A stretch of DNA of 64,000 nt from assembly GCF_988242995.1 (NCBI RefSeq), contig NZ_OZ547043.1; one strand, given 5' to 3'. Positions within the stretch are counted from its first letter, which is position 1; each line of letters starts with the position of its first letter. This document shows positions 19,595 to 62,716 of the stretch, in pieces. The translations under genes and the position numbers were made by a program. The notes under the pieces were generated by a model. The model was not told the DNA's origin. It made no database searches and saw only the letters and a list, made by a program, of their open reading frames with translations.

Positions 19595-19778
19595 AACAAA
19601 GCCGGGAATTACCCGGCTTTGTTATGGAATAAGGCGGTGCCTAACTCGACGTTTCGCCCGATGGTTGATATAGCTACGCTGATATCAGAAGTTGGACGGC
19701 AGGCACCTTGTTGTGCGTCATTCGAATTTTATGTAGCACGTCCCGAAGGGGCTGACATAAGTCGGTGAATGAGCCACT
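19595..19778 (-). ncRNA. glmY: GlmY small RNA (about 184 nt)
   Basis: Transcript read from 19778 begins AGUGGCUCAUUCACCGACUUAUGUCAGCCCCUUCGGG and ends in terminator caaagccggg-taat-tcccggctttg plus U-run (19597-19621); no ORF. Confidence 0.8.
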
Positions 19779-28974: not shown

Positions 28975-29055
28975 CGTTGGAATCGTGTGCTGCACAAAAT
29001 TAAAGTTGTAAAGTAAACCCCCTGTTCCTTACCAGTTCGGGGGTTTTACTTTTTA
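28975..29055 (+). ncRNA. ohsC: antisense small RNA repressing shoB (OhsC-like)
   Basis: Sigma70-like promoter (-35 TTGTAC 28939-28944, -10 CATAAT 28963-28968); 19-nt segment 28977-28995 matches 28728-28746 with one mismatch; terminator 29015-29055; ends inferred. Confidence 0.5.
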
Positions 29056-30935: not shown

Positions 30936-32548
<1,613 letters not shown>

Positions 32549-32790
32549 TCAGCACACGAAACAGACCTGATATACATGGCTCTGCTAACTGCTTCGCTGC
32601 AGTTTCAGTTTACCGGTATATGGGGACCAACGCTGTTTCGTGTGCCGTGGCAACCTGGAGGTGCCAACCTTAAACTTCGGGGGAATATTCTATACACAAC
32701 GACGGGGGATGTCGTTAGCCACGGGAGATTTATCTCATAAATAATTCACGTTGTCGCCATAACGGCGACAACGTGAACGAAGATGGGCTA

Positions 32791-33780: not shown

Positions 33781-35580
<1,800 letters not shown>

Positions 35581-35777
35581 AAAGTATGATTATTGTGCCT
35601 TAATGCCCGGTTAACCAGGCTTTTAGAAGTCGCTGTTCTGAGCTTAACGTCTGTATTAATAGAAACGCCGCATTCTACACTACAACATTGAGGCGAGGAA
35701 ATGTTCATACCGTATGGATTGTGGTATCTGGAAACGTCCTCGCATTTGTTATGCAAAATGCAACAAAGCCAGTGAAA

Positions 35778-36257
35778 TCACTGGCTCGCGTCTTCCGAAG
35801 ATGTTTCAAATCGCACAAGGCCAGGCGGCAATGCCACGCTTAAGATGATCGGTTGCCATTCAGACCGGGCAGCAAACTTTCGAGAGCAGCCACGTGCAAT
35901 CAGGAATCCACCAACGCCACCGAGAATCGCACCGCATAATGCTGCAATATCTGAAGCAAAGAGTAGCTGAAATAGTGAAGCGATGAGGAATAATCCCACC
36001 AGCGGCGACATATAAACCAGTAATGCGGAGCTAAGCAGGCTGCCTTCGGCGATTCCTAATTCTACTTTTTGCCCCGGCACTAACGGCTCATCACAGGGTA
36101 CGACAATGGTATGCGTGGTTTGCGGGCCAAGTTTATTCAACACGCGGCTACCGCAACCGGCACGTGAAGCGCAGCTGCTGCATGAGGCTTTAACATCACA
36201 ACTAACCAGCGCCTGCCCGTTTTCCCAGGAGACGACGGTAGCCCACTCTTTGATCAT
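35778..36257 (-). CDS. rseC: sigma-E regulatory protein RseC
   Basis: 159-aa ORF with Cys-rich N-terminus and hydrophobic C-terminus; start overlaps rseB stop. Confidence 0.9.
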   Translation of the reverse strand: MIKEWATVVSWENGQALVSCDVKASCSSCASRAGCGSRVLNKLGPQTTHTIVVPCDEPLVPGQKVELGIAEGSLLSSALLVYMSPLVGLFLIASLFQLLFASDIAALCGAILGGVGGFLIARGCSRKFAARSEWQPIILSVALPPGLVRFETSSEDASQ

Positions 36258-37210
36258 TGCGCTGCCCCGAACTTAATATTCTCGGCAATGCGTTTCGCCG
36301 TTTGCGGCGGCAGTTCACCGACAATGGTGATTTCGGCGTTATCACGTACGCTTGTACTGACGGTTCTGCGCCCGGTGCGCAACATCTGATCGGTGCTCGA
36401 TGGCGTAGCGCGGTTAACGTTTACCGAGAAGCTGAATAATCCGTCGGAATAGAGACGTGATTCGATAGGCATGTTGTCCATCGTCGGTAGCGGACGTCGA
36501 CTACTGGAAACTTCGCTAAAACCCTGTGGCAACCAGGTTGGCGTCCAGCTGAATTTAGCTTTTTCACCTACAGGAACAGAAAGCAACGGCGGCAAATTTG
36601 CCTTCGCCAGCGTCTGCATACTGCTGCTGATATCCTGATTGACATTAAAAGCAATCACGCGAAATTGTTCCAGCGTTTCACCATCGCGATCAAGGAGATC
36701 AACCCGCATCGGTAATTTCGATTCGGTGTCCATCCACACGATGTAGCTGTAGCGTGTACCATCTCGGGCAACCACACGAATGACTTCGCAAAGACGATCA
36801 GCAATACGCGTGCGCCCGACGGAGATAAAGTCGTAGTAAGGAGAAAGGCGTTTGAAATCGGTATAGATGAGCGATGGTAGAGAATCAACAATGTAATCGC
36901 CATTAAGCGTGAACGGTTCAAGTCCCGGTTCAAAATAGCTGATTTCATTGCCGCGCTGTACCACTTCCCGGCGCGGGCCATCCATTTGCAACAATTGTGC
37001 AAGAGGACGGTTATCGAGGCGTGCATGTCGATAACGCAGAGACTCAACACCCTGTTTATTGATGCTGATGAATGACAGCTCGTAATTCAGTGACTGACTG
37101 GCCAGGTTCATCTGCTGTAATAACGCCCCGGACGCGGGAGTGGCCGAGGCGTTAGCAGAGAATAACAGGCTACCTGTCACTAATGACATGGCAAACCAAA
37201 GTTGCTTCAT
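36254..37210 (-). CDS. rseB: periplasmic regulator of sigma-E, RseB
   Basis: 318-aa ORF with signal peptide; start overlaps rseA stop by 1 nt. Confidence 0.92.
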   Translation of the reverse strand: MKQLWFAMSLVTGSLLFSANASATPASGALLQQMNLASQSLNYELSFISINKQGVESLRYRHARLDNRPLAQLLQMDGPRREVVQRGNEISYFEPGLEPFTLNGDYIVDSLPSLIYTDFKRLSPYYDFISVGRTRIADRLCEVIRVVARDGTRYSYIVWMDTESKLPMRVDLLDRDGETLEQFRVIAFNVNQDISSSMQTLAKANLPPLLSVPVGEKAKFSWTPTWLPQGFSEVSSSRRPLPTMDNMPIESRLYSDGLFSFSVNVNRATPSSTDQMLRTGRRTVSTSVRDNAEITIVGELPPQTAKRIAENIKFGAAQ

Positions 37211-37892: not shown

Positions 37893-38468
37893 TCAACGCC
37901 TGATAAGCGGTTGAACTTTGTTATCAATAGCTTCCCTCGCTCGGAAGATACGTGAACGCACCGTACCTACCGGACAATCCATGATAGCGGCTATCTCTTC
38001 ATAGCTCAGGCCATCCAGCTCCCGCAAGGTTATTGCCATGCGTAAATCTTCCGGGAGGGACTCAATAGTTCGGAAAACTATCTGTCTCAGTTCTTCTGAC
38101 AACATTAAGTTCTCAGGGTTCGAAATTTCTTTCAACGCGCCGCCACTTTCGAAGTTTTCAGCTTCAATGGCATCCACATCACTGGAAGGTGGACGACGCC
38201 CCTGAGCAACCAGGTAATTTTTCGCTGTATTTACAGCAATCCGATACAGCCATGTATAAAAAGCGCTATCTCCCCGGAACGAATCCAGCGCACGATAGGC
38301 TTTAATAAAAGCTTCTTGTACCACATCGGGAACATCACCCGACGGCACATAGCGGGAAACCAGACTCGCCACTTTATGCTGATAGCGCACTACCAGTAAG
38401 TTAAAGGCTTTCTGATCTCCCTTCTGGACCCGTTCAACCAGGACCTGGTCCGTTAACTGCTCGCTCAT
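37893..38468 (-). CDS. rpoE: RNA polymerase sigma-E (ECF sigma factor)
   Basis: Start at MSEQLTDQVLVERVQKGD (191 aa); track ORF extends to an in-frame GTG at 38501. Confidence 0.93.
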   Translation of the reverse strand: MSEQLTDQVLVERVQKGDQKAFNLLVVRYQHKVASLVSRYVPSGDVPDVVQEAFIKAYRALDSFRGDSAFYTWLYRIAVNTAKNYLVAQGRRPPSSDVDAIEAENFESGGALKEISNPENLMLSEELRQIVFRTIESLPEDLRMAITLRELDGLSYEEIAAIMDCPVGTVRSRIFRAREAIDNKVQPLIRR

Positions 38469-38620
38469 CCGAGGTAAAGTCTCCCCAAACCAAATTTCCA
38501 CGCGCTATCGAAACGCCACTCCATTAGCTGCAATTTGAGCAAGCAAAGGGTTAGAGTGTCTCGTTTTTGTAAAGTTCCGTAACGCATCTGTTTTTGTTTG
38601 TCATGCTGTAGACGGATCAT
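38465..38620 (-). CDS. rseD: 51-codon leader ORF whose stop overlaps the rpoE start codon (ATGA)
   Basis: Minus-strand ORF MIRLQHDKQKQMRYGTLQKRDTLTLCLLKLQLMEWRFDSAWKFGLGRLYLG in the +1 frame relative to rpoE; I recall a published rpoE leader ORF of this length but have not verified the sequence. Confidence 0.55.
   Translation of the reverse strand: MIRLQHDKQKQMRYGTLQKRDTLTLCLLKLQLMEWRFDSAWKFGLGRLYLG
38551..38578 (-). promoter_or_regulatory. sigma-E-dependent promoter of rpoE (autoregulated P2)
   Basis: Minus-strand GGAACTT-N16-TCTAA matches the sigma-E consensus; lies inside the rseD ORF. Confidence 0.75.
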
Positions 38621-38866
38621 TATCTATCATTATAAGTCTACAGAATCTGAACATCGCATTATCTGTGTAGAAATGCCCATTTAACTGCCTGAAGAGTAAC
38701 CCAACGGCCTTTTTATTTCACCACCTAATCCTCCACCAGCCAGTAACTTCTCTTTTTCTCGCCGCCCTGCGTCAACGTGTTTAGCAACTGTAACAAATAT
38801 TAAAATAGCAGGTGTTTATCCGCACAACATGATGCTATGCTGACCAAACCATGTTTAGTAAATTAA

Positions 38867-41220
<2,354 letters not shown>

Positions 41221-54557: not shown

Positions 54558-54677
54558 ATGCCTGGCAGTTCCCTACTCTCGCATGGGGAGACCCCACACT
54601 ACCATCGGCGCTACGGCGTTTCACTTCTGAGTTCGGCATGGGGTCAGGTGGGACCACCGCGCTAAGGCCGCCAGGCA
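54558..54677 (-). rRNA. rrfG: 5S ribosomal RNA
   Basis: 120 nt; reverse complement reads UGCCUGGCGGCC...CUGCCAGGCAU. Confidence 0.93.
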
Positions 54678-54770
54678 AATTCTGTTTTATTAACCCGCTT
54701 GTCGCCGGTTAATTTAATCTGTATCAGGCTGAAAATCTTCTCTCATCCGCCAAAACATCTTCGGCGTTGT

Positions 54771-57675
<2,905 letters not shown>

Positions 57676-57868
57676 TCACAACCCGAAGATGTTTCTTTCG
57701 ATTCATCATCGTGTTGCGAAAATTTGAGAGACTCACGAACAACTTTCGTTGTTCAGTGTTTCAATTTTCAGCTTGATCCAGATTTTTAAAGAGCAAATAT
57801 CTCAAACATCACCCGAAGATGAGTTTTGAGATATTAAGGCAGGTGACTTTCACTCACAAACCAGCAAG

Positions 57869-57944
57869 TGGCGTCCCCTAGGGGATTCGAACCCCTGTTA
57901 CCGCCGTGAAAGGGCGGTGTCCTGGGCCTCTAGACGAAGGGGAC
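57869..57944 (-). tRNA. gltW: tRNA-Glu (UUC anticodon) in the 16S-23S spacer
   Basis: 76-nt reverse complement GTCCCCTTCGTCTAGAGGCCCAGGACACCGCCCTTTCACGGCGGTAACAGGGGTTCGAATCCCCTAGGGGACGCCA. Confidence 0.93.
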
Positions 57945-58029
57945 GTGTCAGTCTGCTTCGCAAGACGCCTTGCTTTTCACTTTCTATCAGACAATCTGTG
58001 TGAGCACTTCAAAGAACGCTTCTTTAAGG

Positions 58030-59571
<1,542 letters not shown>

Positions 59572-60013: not shown

Positions 60014-62587
60014 TTACTGGACGGCGACAATCCGGTCTTCATTAACTTCCAGGCGAATAACTTTACCCGGAACCAATTCACCAGACAGTATTTGCTGTGC
60101 CAGCGGGTTTTCGATCTGCTGCTGGATAGCACGTTTCAGAGGACGTGCACCATAGACCGGATCGTAACCGTTCTCGCTCAGCAGTTTCAGCGCCTCGTCA
60201 GAAATGTGGATTTCATAACCACGTTCTTCCAGACGTTTGTACAGACGTTTCAACTGAATCTGCGCAATCGACGCAATGTGCTGTTCACCCAGCGGATGGA
60301 AGACCACCACTTCATCGATACGGTTAATGAATTCCGGACGGAAGTTATGGCTTACCACACCGAGCACCAGCTCTTTCATGTGCGCATAATCCAGTTCACC
60401 GAAGCGTTCCTGAATCAAATCGGAACCGAGGTTAGAGGTCATAATGACAACCGTATTACGGAAGTCGACCGTTCTCCCCTGCCCGTCAGTCAGACGCCCA
60501 TCATCCAGTACCTGCAACAGAATGTTGAAGACATCCGGATGCGCTTTTTCCACTTCATCCAGCAGGATGACGGAATACGGACGACGACGCACCGCTTCGG
60601 TCAGGTAGCCACCTTCTTCATAACCGACATATCCCGGAGGCGCACCAACCAGACGAGACACCGAGTGTTTCTCCATAAACTCGGACATATCGATACGGAC
60701 CATCGCCTCGTCGCTATCAAACATAAAGTTCGCCAGCGCCTTACAAAGCTCAGTTTTCCCCACACCCGTTGGGCCGAGGAACAGGAATGAACCAATCGGG
60801 CGATTTGGATCCGCCAGCCCCGCACGGCTACGACGAATAGCGTTAGATACCGCATCAACCGCTTCGTTCTGACCAATAACGCGATGGTGCAGCTCTTGCT
60901 CCATACGCAGCAGTTTTTCGCGCTCGCTTTCCATCATGCGAGAAACCGGAATCCCCGTCCAACGCGCCAGCACTTCAGCAATTTCGGCATCGGTCACTTT
61001 ATTACGCAACAGACGCATAGTTTTGCCTTCGAGCTGCGTTGCGGCTTCCAGTTGCTTTTCCAGTTCCGGGATTTTGCCGTATTGCAGTTCAGACATCCGC
61101 GCCAGGTCACCCACACGGCGAGCCTGTTCAATAGCGATTTTCGCCTGTTCCAGTTCCGCTTTAATGGTCTGTGTACCAGAAAGCGATGCTTTCTCTGCTT
61201 TCCACTCTTCTTCTAACTCGGAGTACTGACGTTCTTTGTCGCTCAGTTCTTCGTTGAGCATATCCAGGCGTTTTTTACTGGCTTCATCAGACTCTTTCAT
61301 TAACGCCTGTTGTTCCAGTTTAAGCTGGATGATACGACGATCGAGTCGGTCGAGTTCTTCTGGTTTTGAGTCGATCTGCATACGAATGCTGGATGCTGCT
61401 TCATCGATCAGGTCGATGGCTTTATCCGGCAGCTGACGGTCAGCAATGTAGCGATGAGACAACGTCGCCGCTGCAACAATTGCCGGGTCAGTAATTTGCA
61501 CATGGTGGTGCAATTCGTAACGTTCTTTCAGGCCACGCAGAATCGCAATGGTATCTTCAACAGAAGGCTCGGCAACAAACACTTTCTGGAAACGACGTTC
61601 CAGCGCAGCATCTTTTTCGATGTACTGGCGATATTCGTCAAGCGTCGTGGCACCTACGCAGTGCAATTCACCACGCGCCAGCGCCGGTTTCAGCATGTTT
61701 CCGGCGTCCATTGCGCCATCGGCTTTACCCGCGCCGACCATGGTATGTAATTCGTCGATAAACAGGATGACGTTGCCTTCCTGTTTGGCAAGATCGTTAA
61801 GCACGCCTTTTAAACGTTCTTCAAACTCACCGCGATATTTCGCCCCAGCCACCAGCGCGCCCATATCCAGCGCCAGTACGCGGCGGCCTTTCAACCCTTC
61901 CGGCACTTCGCCGTTGATAATACGCTGCGCCAGACCTTCAACGATGGCAGTTTTACCGACGCCGGGTTCACCAATCAGTACTGGGTTATTTTTAGTACGA
62001 CGTTGCAGCACCTGAATGGTACGGCGAATTTCTTCATCACGACCAATCACCGGATCGAGTTTGCCCTGTTCGGCTCGTTCGGTAAGGTCGATGGTATATT
62101 TTTTCAAAGCCTGACGTTGGTCTTCAGCACCTTGATCGTTCACGCTTTCACCTCCACGCATTTGTTCAATCGCTTGAGTAATGTTGGCGGTGGTCGCCCC
62201 TGCTGCTTTCAGGATGTCGGCCAGCGTGCCGCGAGACTCAAGTGCCGCCAGAACGAACAGTTCTGACGAGATAAAGTTATCACCACGTTTTTGCGCCAGC
62301 TTGTCGCAAAGATTAAGAACGCGCACCAGATCCTGTGATGGCTGGACATCACCACCAGTACCTTCAACCTGCGGTAAACGATTTAATGCCTGATTGATAT
62401 CTGTGCGCAACTGGCCAGCATTTATGCCAGCGGATGTTAATAAAGGACTAACCGAACCCCCTTCCTGATTCAGCAGGGCGCTCATTAAATGAAGTGGTTC
62501 GATGAATTGGTTGTCGTGCCCGAGTGCAAGTGATTGGGCATCGGCAAGAGCAAGCTGGAATTTATTAGTAAGACGATCCAGACGCAT
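60014..62587 (-). CDS. clpB: AAA+ disaggregase chaperone ClpB
   Basis: Start at [11 protein letters not shown] (857 aa); two nucleotide-binding domains (GEPGVGKT and GPTGVGKT) with coiled-coil middle domain. Confidence 0.93.
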
Positions 62588-62626
62588 AACTCCTCCCATA
62601 ACGGATCAAAGTTGCTACTGGAGATT

Positions 62627-62654
62627 AAATGAGGTCATCCCTCAATTATTCAAG
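62627..62654 (-). promoter_or_regulatory. sigma32 (heat-shock) type promoter of clpB
   Basis: Minus-strand CCTTGAA-N14-CCTCATTTAA resembles the sigma32 consensus, about 35-60 nt upstream of the clpB ATG. Confidence 0.55.
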
Positions 62655-62716
62655 GTTATTGACCAGATTAATGTGAAAAGAAAATCACGCGTACCGGATC
62701 GTCTTGATTCTTTAGG

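What the first reader, a model, noticed from the sequence alone, without database searches (positions are those of the whole stretch)
38465..38620. 51-codon leader ORF fused to the rpoE start by an ATGA overlap, with the sigma-E promoter inside it
In the +1 frame relative to rpoE there is a 51-codon ORF (MIRLQHDKQKQ...GLGRLYLG) whose TGA shares two bases with the rpoE ATG, the classic translational-coupling arrangement. The sigma-E-type promoter (GGAACTT-N16-TCTAA, 38551-38578) lies inside this ORF. Transcripts from upstream promoters would encode the whole peptide; sigma-E-driven transcripts begin after its first ATG and could only translate the last 19 codons from the internal ATG at 38524. 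Coupling to rpoE could therefore depend on which promoter fires.
Basis: partly seen in the sequence, partly recalled or inferred. Interest (0 to 1): 0.5.

Follow-up and report, generated by a model that had tools for sequence, protein, structure and literature searches.

The report
rseD, the known rpoE leader ORF
The 51-codon reading frame overlapping the start of the E. coli envelope-stress sigma factor gene rpoE is real, but it is the already named and annotated leader gene rseD, so the finding is a correct rediscovery and not something new.

Summary
A 51-codon ATG-initiated ORF lies on the minus strand at 38620..38465. Its TGA (38467-38465) overlaps the rpoE ATG (38468-38466), and the sigma-E promoter (GGAACTT 38578-38572, N16, TCTAA 38555-38551) sits inside it. 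This ORF is already known. RefSeq annotates the identical 51-aa product as 'rpoE leader peptide RseD' (WP_001303621.1). It scores 104 bits against the NCBIfam equivalog NF033697 (cutoff 35). The literature describes the operon as rseD-rpoE-rseA-rseB-rseC (Yakhnin et al. 2017).

Comparison of 120 Enterobacterales loci adds four points.
- The ATGA is universal, because RpoE begins Met-Ser(AGC).
- A long ORF ending there is confined to Escherichia, Citrobacter, Salmonella and a few other lineages.
- The ORF shows no coding signature: 9/11/7 variable sites at codon positions 1/2/3, against 8/1/81 in rpoE. Its start shifts between ATGs through 1-nt indels. The peptide sequence is therefore probably irrelevant and only the act of translation matters.
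- The first 10 nt of the sigma-E transcript are order-wide invariant and complementary to the rpoE AUG region. This would make rpoE translation differ by promoter, but the structure is unproven.

The parts
38465..38620 (-). rseD ORF: 51 codons plus TGA
   Evidence: ORF list. Identical 51/51 to RefSeq WP_001303621.1 'rpoE leader peptide RseD'. NCBIfam NF033697 at 104 bits against a cutoff of 35.
38465..38468 (-). ATGA overlap: rpoE start ATG (38468-38466) and rseD stop TGA (38467-38465)
   Evidence: Sequence. RefSeq CDS coordinates overlap by 4 nt. ATGA is present in 120/120 Enterobacterales loci.
37893..38468 (-). rpoE coding sequence (191 codons plus stop)
   Evidence: ORF list. RefSeq annotation.
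38572..38578 (-). -35 element GGAACTT of the sigma-E-dependent promoter (rpoEP6), inside rseD codons 15-17
   Evidence: Sequence. Conserved across most loci.
38551..38555 (-). -10 element TCTAA of rpoEP6, inside rseD codons 22-24
   Evidence: Sequence. Position matches the published Tn10 at -90, described as 3 nt upstream of the -10 rpoEP6 element.
38585..38587 (-). In-frame ATG at rseD codon 12. It is the only start codon conserved in all 17 Escherichia/Citrobacter/Salmonella sequences.
   Evidence: Clade alignment. Peptide table. C. amalonaticus RseD starts here.
38522..38524 (-). In-frame ATG at rseD codon 33. It is the only in-frame ATG contained in the sigma-E transcript.
   Evidence: Sequence. 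No SD upstream. Not enriched order-wide.
38481..38486 (-). rpoE Shine-Dalgarno GGGGAG, 12 nt upstream of the AUG. It contains a GGA motif and lies in rseD codons 45-47.
   Evidence: Sequence. Near-invariant across 112 sequences. CsrA is reported to bind sites overlapping the SD and the start codon.
38536..38545 (-). Invariant block TGCTTGCTCA at the expected 5' end of the sigma-E transcript (rseD codons 26-28). It is the 5' strand of the proposed long-range helix.
   Evidence: Alignment A1. RNAalifold. Pair counts. Pairing probability ~1.0 in short transcripts.
38458..38467 (-). TGAGCGAGCA: UG of the rpoE AUG, the rseD stop, and rpoE codons 2-4 with invariant synonymous sites. It is the 3' strand of the proposed helix.
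38468..38489 (-). Inner SD-containing hairpin (arms 38489-38483 and 38474-38468). It corresponds to the bulged duplex near the AUG studied for polyamine stimulation of RpoE synthesis.
   Evidence: MFE fold. 97.4% of cells paired across 112 sequences. The literature's -20(deltaU) mutant maps to 38488.
38629..38634 (-). Perfect, clade-conserved TATAAT hexamer 8 nt upstream of the rseD ATG. It is a candidate -10 of a distal promoter whose transcript would have almost no leader before ATG 38620.
   Evidence: Sequence. Conserved in all 17 clade sequences. No TSS data were available here, so function is inferred.

Best explanation
This is rseD, the leader ORF of the rseD-rpoE-rseA-rseB-rseC operon of Escherichia coli.

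Ribosomes that translate rseD on transcripts from the distal rpoE promoters terminate at the UGA that overlaps the rpoE AUG (AUGA). They re-initiate or hand over there, which raises rpoE translation (published). On the way they probably also melt RNA structure that covers the rpoE SD and AUG (inferred).

The sigma-E-dependent promoter P6 lies inside rseD, so its transcript lacks the rseD start. On that transcript rpoE depends on direct initiation at a poorly spaced SD, inside a region bound by CsrA and predicted to be base-paired. Translational coupling is therefore a property of distal-promoter transcripts only (inferred from geometry).

The RseD peptide sequence itself appears not to be under selection. 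The ORF works in cis through being translated, not as a protein (inferred from comparative data).
For: Identity:
- RefSeq annotation as rseD in the region held by 5425/5426 complete E. coli genomes.
- CDS coordinates with a 4-nt overlap with rpoE and 51/51 identity.
- NCBIfam equivalog NF033697 'rpoE leader peptide RseD' at 104.2 bits against a cutoff of 35.
- Database relatives named RseD.

Literature:
[quoted passage not shown] - There are six promoters, and P6 (sigma-E) is the most proximal. Its -10 position matches the window exactly.
- From my own knowledge of the Yakhnin et al. 2017 abstract (J Bacteriol 199:e00484-17, not readable here): ORF51/rseD is translationally coupled to rpoE, and loss of coupling lowers rpoE translation by more than 50%.

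Cis-acting reading:
- Variable columns at codon positions 1/2/3 are 9/11/7 of 40 in rseD codons 12-51, against 8/1/81 of 191 in rpoE in the same genomes.
- Codons 33-51 diverge 0.008-0.036, against 0.141 at rpoE synonymous sites.
- 1-nt indels move the start among three ATGs.
- The long ORF is absent from many genera.

Structure:
- The helix between 38545-38536 and 38467-38458 is the only RNAalifold consensus.
- It is 97% paired across 112 sequences.
- Its predicted probability is ~1.0 in the short transcript, where the AUG is 91% paired, against 11-42% paired in modelled long transcripts.
Against: - The primary experimental paper could not be read here, so the coupling result rests on annotation, secondary citations and my recollection.
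- None of the three in-frame ATGs has a Shine-Dalgarno sequence, so which start is used, and how efficiently, is unknown.
- I found no TSS coordinates for the five distal promoters, so I could not show which of them include ATG 38620.
- The helix has no compensatory double changes because its 3' strand is invariant. The single-sequence fold is not better than shuffles (z = -1.2). Long-transcript folds are low-confidence (MFE frequency 0.002).
- The helix is conserved in genera without a long rseD, so it does not depend on rseD.
Confidence: 0.8

Rival explanations
1. RseD is a functional small protein that takes part in the envelope stress response in trans. On this reading the overlap with rpoE serves co-expression and not control.
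For: - The ORF is retained as 46-54 codons in all sampled Escherichia, Citrobacter and Salmonella.
- A curated protein family model exists.
- As I recall, the discoverers raised this possibility in their abstract.
Against: - No third-position excess: 9/11/7 against 8/1/81 in rpoE.
- The conserved residues coincide with the -35 and -10 promoter elements and with a 5'UTR that is conserved at all three codon positions.
- Frame-shifting 1-nt indels occur in the N-terminal part.
- The ORF is cut to 5-8 codons in Kluyvera, Pseudocitrobacter, Siccibacter, Rosenbergiella and many Pantoea.
- No Pfam domain.
- Truncated 40-aa alleles circulate in E. coli.
Confidence: 0.08
2. The ORF is a by-product of nucleotide-level constraints (a promoter plus a conserved 5'UTR that happen to lack stops in this frame). 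Its translation contributes little, and rpoE translation is set by its own SD, CsrA, polyamines and RNA structure.
For: - The ATGA is universal and uninformative.
- The conserved 75-nt UTR alone gives ~25 open codons in every species.
- Upstream of it the rseD frame is hardly more stop-free than the other frames: 2.11 vs 2.58 vs 2.91 stops per 41 codons, with zero-stop loci 16 vs 10 vs 11 of 115.
- No SD precedes any ATG.
- The chance rate is 0.9-3%.
Against: - Published demonstration of coupling with a >50% effect (my recollection of Yakhnin 2017), reflected in the 'leader peptide' annotation and citations.
- The open length in the rseD frame is larger overall: median 37 codons against 19 and 18, with >=40 codons in 46 vs 7 vs 12 of 115 loci.
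Confidence: 0.1
3. On sigma-E (P6) transcripts a 19-codon mini-ORF starting at ATG 38524 is translated and also couples to rpoE. Coupling would then operate from every promoter.
For: - ATG 38524 is inside the P6 transcript and is conserved in all 17 clade sequences.
- Serratia (6/6) and some Pantoea and Arsenophonus have in-frame ATG-initiated ORFs of 18-23 codons inside the same UTR.
Against: - No SD upstream.
- The AUG lies ~20 nt from the 5' end, next to the predicted 5'-terminal helix.
- In-frame AUGs in the UTR are not enriched against the other frames order-wide: 52/51/37 ATGs, in 40/41/30 loci.
- The AUGGAG here is as well explained by a GGA (CsrA-type) motif.
Confidence: 0.1

Closest known systems
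rseD (ORF51), rpoE leader peptide of E. coli (Yakhnin, Aichele, Ades, Romeo, Babitzke 2017, J Bacteriol 199:e00484-17; NCBIfam NF033697; RefSeq WP_001303621.1)
   Same: Identical in sequence, position, length and the ATGA overlap with rpoE.
   Different: Nothing differs; it is the same gene. My comparative results add three points. The peptide shows no coding signature. The start codon is not fixed within the clade. The long ORF is lineage-restricted.
CsrA-controlled upstream ORF translationally coupled to iraD in E. coli (Park et al. 2017, as summarised in PMC7652899)
   Same: A short ORF in the leader of a stress-regulator gene whose translation drives translation of the downstream gene. Both lie in CsrA-bound leaders.
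   Different: For iraD, CsrA is reported to act on the upstream ORF. For rpoE, the reported CsrA sites cover the rpoE SD and start codon directly. rseD also contains a promoter for the downstream gene.
Polyamine-modulon initiation regions (oppA, rpoE; Terui et al. 2009, as described in PMC4951125)
   Same: The bulged duplex next to the rpoE AUG, with the -20 U at 38488, is the inner hairpin seen here. It lies within rseD codons 44-51.
   Different: That work concerns direct initiation at rpoE and, as far as I could read, does not involve the upstream ORF or the outer 5'-end helix.
Attenuation-type leader peptides (trpL, hisL, pheL)
   Same: A short ORF in the leader of an operon, named 'leader peptide'.
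   Different: rseD has no run of regulatory codons, and no terminator-like structure lies between the ORF and rpoE. The ORF overlaps the downstream start instead of ending before an attenuator.

Membership tests
RseD (NCBIfam NF033697, leader_RseD, equivalog) | Scores above the curated cutoff of the family model | tested here: met
   104.2 bits against a cutoff of 35, E = 3.2e-30. Residues 7-51 match profile positions 1-45 of 45.
RseD (NCBIfam NF033697, leader_RseD, equivalog) | Encoded immediately upstream of rpoE on the same strand, with its stop overlapping the rpoE start | tested here: met
   TGA 38467-38465 and ATG 38468-38466. RefSeq CDSs overlap by 4 nt.
RseD (NCBIfam NF033697, leader_RseD, equivalog) | Identity to the named E. 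coli protein | tested here: met
   51/51 identical to WP_001303621.1.
Translationally coupled upstream ORF (termination-reinitiation at an overlapping stop/start) | Stop codon of the upstream ORF overlaps or abuts the downstream start | tested here: met
   ATGA at 38468-38465.
Translationally coupled upstream ORF (termination-reinitiation at an overlapping stop/start) | The upstream ORF has a functional translation start on the mRNA | tested here: inconclusive
   Three in-frame ATGs and none with an SD. ATG 38620 sits 8 nt after a conserved TATAAT, so it may be near-leaderless. Only ATG 38587 is conserved in the clade. No TSS or ribosome data were available.
Translationally coupled upstream ORF (termination-reinitiation at an overlapping stop/start) | Downstream translation falls when upstream translation is blocked | not testable with these tools
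   Reported by Yakhnin et al. 2017 (my recollection of the abstract). The paper is not held.
Sigma-E-dependent promoter (rpoEP6) | GGAACTT, ~16-nt spacer, TCTAA/TCNAA, at the published position | tested here: met
   38578-38572, N16, 38555-38551. The -10 begins at -87 from the rpoE ATG, as implied by the published Tn10 at -90 lying 3 nt upstream of it. The motif is found at about -110 in most Enterobacterales loci.
Conserved functional small protein | Purifying selection on the amino-acid sequence (excess of third-position change, in-frame indels only) | tested here: not met
   9/11/7 variable sites at positions 1/2/3, against 8/1/81 in rpoE. 1-nt indels in the N-terminal part.
Attenuation-type leader peptide | Intrinsic terminator or alternative hairpins between the leader ORF and the structural gene | tested here: not met
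   No terminator-like site in 38400-38900. The ORF overlaps rpoE, leaving no room for one.
Described cis-regulatory RNA family (Rfam) | Match to any Rfam covariance model | tested here: not met
   No match at E <= 1 in 38300-38900.

The most novel reading that the evidence does not exclude
The first 9-10 nucleotides of the sigma-E-driven rpoE transcript (UGCUUGCUCA, 38545-38536) are invariant across Enterobacterales. They pair with UGAGCGAGCA (38467-38458), which comprises UG of the rpoE AUG, the rseD stop and rpoE codons 2-4, whose synonymous sites are frozen.

This 5'-terminal helix would mask the rpoE start specifically on the autoregulated transcript and so act as a translational brake on the positive feedback loop. 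Transcripts from distal promoters escape it through alternative folding and, in the Escherichia-Citrobacter-Salmonella clade, through ribosomes translating rseD across the 5' strand. rpoE protein yield per mRNA would then depend on which promoter fired. rseD would be a lineage-specific, sequence-indifferent 'helix opener' layered on an older RNA switch.
Probability: 0.3. Interest if true: 0.45.

Novelty: already known. Interest (0 to 1): 0.1.

Why it matters
Sigma-E is essential in E. coli, and both too little and too much of it are harmful, so each layer that sets its level matters. The ORF itself is established knowledge: it was named rseD in 2017 and is annotated genome-wide, so the finding adds nothing new as stated.

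What could matter is the refinement. If coupling and RNA masking really differ between the sigma-E transcript and the distal-promoter transcripts, the six rpoE promoters would differ in how much sigma-E each mRNA makes, as well as in when they fire.

The comparative data also argue against looking for a trans-acting function of the RseD peptide.

Tried and rejected
- **Primary literature.** Yakhnin 2017, Klein 2016, Terui 2009, the EcoSal small-proteome review and the mBio initiation-profiling paper were not held. The bioRxiv version of the profiling paper had no supplements held. I therefore obtained no TSS coordinates for P1-P5 and no ribosome-occupancy data.
- **Salmonella census.** The small-protein census does not mention rseD or rpoE.
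- **Sigma-70 and terminator scan of 38400-38900.** Nothing found, so the attenuator model was rejected.
- **Rfam.** No family in the leader.
- **Sigma-54 (P2) element.** No convincing site in the upstream intergenic region. The only GG-N10-GC match conserved in most of the sampled clade sequences lies at -50 inside the 5'UTR and is probably coincidental.
- **Covariation for the helix.** Uninformative, because one strand is invariant.
- **Single-sequence folding.** z-scores not significant.
- **Large hairpin in the long transcript** (38587-38497). Rejected because Citrobacter substitutions are not compensatory (inspection).
- **Order-wide selection for a mini-ORF inside the sigma-E UTR.** Rejected.
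- **Protein structure prediction.** Not attempted, since the peptide shows no selection on its sequence.

Full report
**1. Observation**

Reading the minus strand confirms every coordinate in the finding. An ATG at 38620 opens a frame of 51 sense codons (MIRLQHDKQKQMRYGTLQKRDTLTLCLLKLQLMEWRFDSAWKFGLGRLYLG) that ends in TGA at 38467-38465. rpoE starts at ATG 38468-38466 (MSEQLTDQ...), so the two genes share ATGA.

GGAACTT (38578-38572), a 16-nt spacer and TCTAA (38555-38551) lie inside the ORF. In-frame ATGs also occur at codon 12 (38587) and codon 33 (38524). The window is E. coli, with rpoE-rseABC on the minus strand and nadB diverging on the plus strand.

**2. What it is**

The region is present in 5425 of 5426 complete E. 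coli genomes. RefSeq annotates the ORF as 'rseD: rpoE leader peptide RseD'. In an identical record the rseD CDS overlaps the rpoE CDS by 4 nt, and the product WP_001303621.1 is 51/51 identical to the window ORF.

NCBIfam has an equivalog model for it, NF033697 leader_RseD. The ORF scores 104.2 bits against a cutoff of 35. Pfam has nothing significant. A search of 5.8 billion proteins returns 17 relatives, of which 13 are named RseD by a source; those come from Escherichia, Shigella and Citrobacter, apart from one partial entry labelled Pseudomonas aeruginosa.

Papers in the library write the operon as rseD-rpoE-rseA-rseB-rseC and cite Yakhnin et al. 2017 for it. That paper was not readable here. 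From my own knowledge of its abstract, it identified this 51-codon ORF (ORF51), showed that rpoE is translationally coupled to it, found that loss of coupling lowers rpoE translation by more than half, and renamed it rseD. It also showed that CsrA binds three sites in the leader, two of them over the rpoE SD and start codon. The CsrA result is confirmed by a review I could read.

**3. The promoter inside the ORF**

[quoted passage not shown] A Tn10 at -90 from the rpoE ATG is described as lying 3 nt upstream of the P6 -10 element. This puts the -10 at 38555, exactly the TCTAA in the window.

With the usual 6-7 nt to the start site, the P6 transcript begins near 38545-38543. That is downstream of ATG 38620 and ATG 38587 and 20 nt upstream of ATG 38524. 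One paper states that all operon promoters lie upstream of or within rseD.

I could not obtain coordinates for P1-P5, because Klein 2016 is not held. I also could not place the sigma-54 element by consensus.

**4. More than chance?**

By shuffling, an ATG ORF of >=51 codons ending at the ATGA occurs in 0.9% of cases. The ATGA itself is uninformative, since all 120 Enterobacterales loci fetched with an rpoE-internal pattern have it. RpoE begins Met-Ser with AGC.

**5. Comparative anatomy**

The ORF ending at the ATGA varies widely.
- It is 46-54 codons with homologous sequence in Escherichia, in Salmonella diarizonae and in 12 of the 13 tabulated Citrobacter. C. amalonaticus has a 40-codon version.
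- It is 85-86 codons in some Cedecea.
- It is 19 codons in Serratia.
- It is only 5-8 open codons in Kluyvera, Pseudocitrobacter, Siccibacter, Rosenbergiella and many Pantoea.

Overall the rseD frame stays open longer than the other two (median 37 vs 19 and 18 codons). This is mostly because the conserved 75-nt 5'UTR is stop-free in that frame. In the 41 codons upstream of it, the three frames carry 2.11, 2.58 and 2.91 stops.

**6. No sign of selection on the peptide**

I compared the 17 Escherichia/Citrobacter/Salmonella sequences.
- rseD codons 12-51 have 9, 11 and 7 variable columns at codon positions 1, 2 and 3. rpoE in the same genomes has 8, 1 and 81.
- The variable stretches are the promoter spacer and the segment after the -10. 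The conserved 'residues' are the -35 element, the -10 element and the UTR.
- Codons 33-51 are more conserved at all three positions (0.008-0.036) than rpoE synonymous sites (0.141). This points to constraint on the nucleotides.
- Upstream of codon 12, 1-nt indels move the start among three different ATGs. E. coli uses 38620. Most Citrobacter and Salmonella use an ATG inside the conserved TATAATG 9 nt further up. Two Citrobacter use ATGACAAAC. C. amalonaticus starts at codon 12.
- The NCBIfam profile accordingly starts at E. coli residue 7.
- Truncated or frameshifted alleles exist in databases, including a 40-aa form in 7 member sequences.

I conclude that rseD acts through being translated, not through its product. 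This is inference.

**7. How coupling may work: a conserved helix**

Aligning 112 distinct leaders shows two order-wide invariant blocks.
- The first is TGCTTGCTCA (38545-38536) at the P6 start.
- The second is TTTGGGGAGAC-TTACCTCGGATGAGCGAGCAGTTAACGGA, which includes the synonymous sites of rpoE codons 2-4. My search pattern left those sites free.

The first block is complementary over 10 bp to UGAGCGAGCA (38467-38458), with a duplex energy of -15.2 kcal/mol. The evidence for this helix is as follows.
- RNAalifold returns this helix as the only consensus structure.
- It is 97.3% paired across 112 sequences, and the structure as a whole is 97.4% paired against 41-51% when the partners are slid. 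The 26 one-sided changes all keep pairing, but there are no double compensations.
- In the thermodynamic model the helix forms with probability ~1.0 in transcripts starting at 38545 or 38544 and leaves the AUG 9% unpaired. In modelled long transcripts it is not predicted, and the AUG is 58-89% unpaired.
- Across 112 species the AUG of the short form has a median unpaired probability of 0.07.

The inner SD hairpin corresponds to the bulged duplex studied for polyamine stimulation of RpoE synthesis, where -20 U maps to 38488. The rpoE SD GGGGAG is 12 nt from the AUG.

These data suggest that rpoE initiation is intrinsically masked on the sigma-E transcript. Ribosomes translating rseD (codons 26-28 are the 5' strand) would keep the start open on distal-promoter transcripts.

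There are caveats. Single-sequence z-scores are not significant, and long-RNA predictions are weak. The helix also exists where rseD does not, so it predates rseD.

**8. The '19-codon' idea**

ATG 38524 has no SD. In-frame AUGs in the UTR are no more frequent than out-of-frame ones across the order. I rate this sub-claim unlikely.

**9. Verdict**

Novelty: already known. Interest is low as a finding. The comparative refinements (a sequence-indifferent ORF, a shifting start, a conserved 5'-end/AUG helix) are modest leads.

Noticed in passing
window 38536-38545 and 38458-38467 (minus strand): The two blocks are invariant across Enterobacterales and complementary over 10 bp. One is the extreme 5' end of the sigma-E transcript. 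The other is the rpoE AUG with codons 2-4, whose synonymous sites are frozen. It is the only RNAalifold consensus helix and is 97% paired in 112 sequences, but it has no compensatory changes.
   Followed up: partly
window 38587-38640 (minus strand); L002, L011, L043, L092, L103: The rseD start is not fixed. 1-nt indels shift it among three ATGs within the Escherichia/Citrobacter/Salmonella clade, and only the ATG at E. coli codon 12 (38587) is common to all. A perfect conserved TATAAT (38634-38629) ends 8 nt before ATG 38620, so a transcript from it would be nearly leaderless.
   Followed up: partly
proteins P0006, P0004, P0013 (E. coli database alleles of rseD): Natural variant alleles exist. 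One is a 40-aa form ending before W41 (7 member sequences, 20 contigs), which would terminate 11 codons before the rpoE AUG and uncouple it. Another is a 48-aa form with a 9-nt deletion in the sigma-E promoter spacer. I did not check whether these are real or assembly errors.
   Followed up: no
window 38503-38518 (minus strand): A GG-N10-GC sigma-54-like motif (TGGCGTTTCGATAGCG) lies at -50 inside the rpoE 5'UTR and is present in six of the seven clade sequences checked. It is downstream of all six described promoters and is probably coincidental.
   Followed up: no
window 35462-36293 (+): Strong Rfam match (503 bits) to AsrC, the antisense RNA of rseC described in Salmonella Typhi as a positive regulator of rpoE-rseABC. 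It is opposite the 3' end of the same operon.
   Followed up: no
window 19631-19778 (-), 28976-29052 (+), 32464-32678 (-), 62568-62706 (-), 54560-59571 (-): Other Rfam matches are GlmY sRNA, ohsC antitoxin RNA, the rncO leader, RyfD and a complete rRNA operon with a spacer tRNA. GlmY's sigma-54/sigma-70 promoter with QseF is described as analogous to rpoEP2/P3.
   Followed up: no
L095 (labelled Chryseobacterium sp. 18061) and L116 (labelled Martelella alba): Two assemblies labelled as non-enterobacterial species carry typical enterobacterial rpoE leaders, Pluralibacter-like and Acerihabitans-like respectively. This suggests contamination or mislabelling of those genome records.
   Followed up: no
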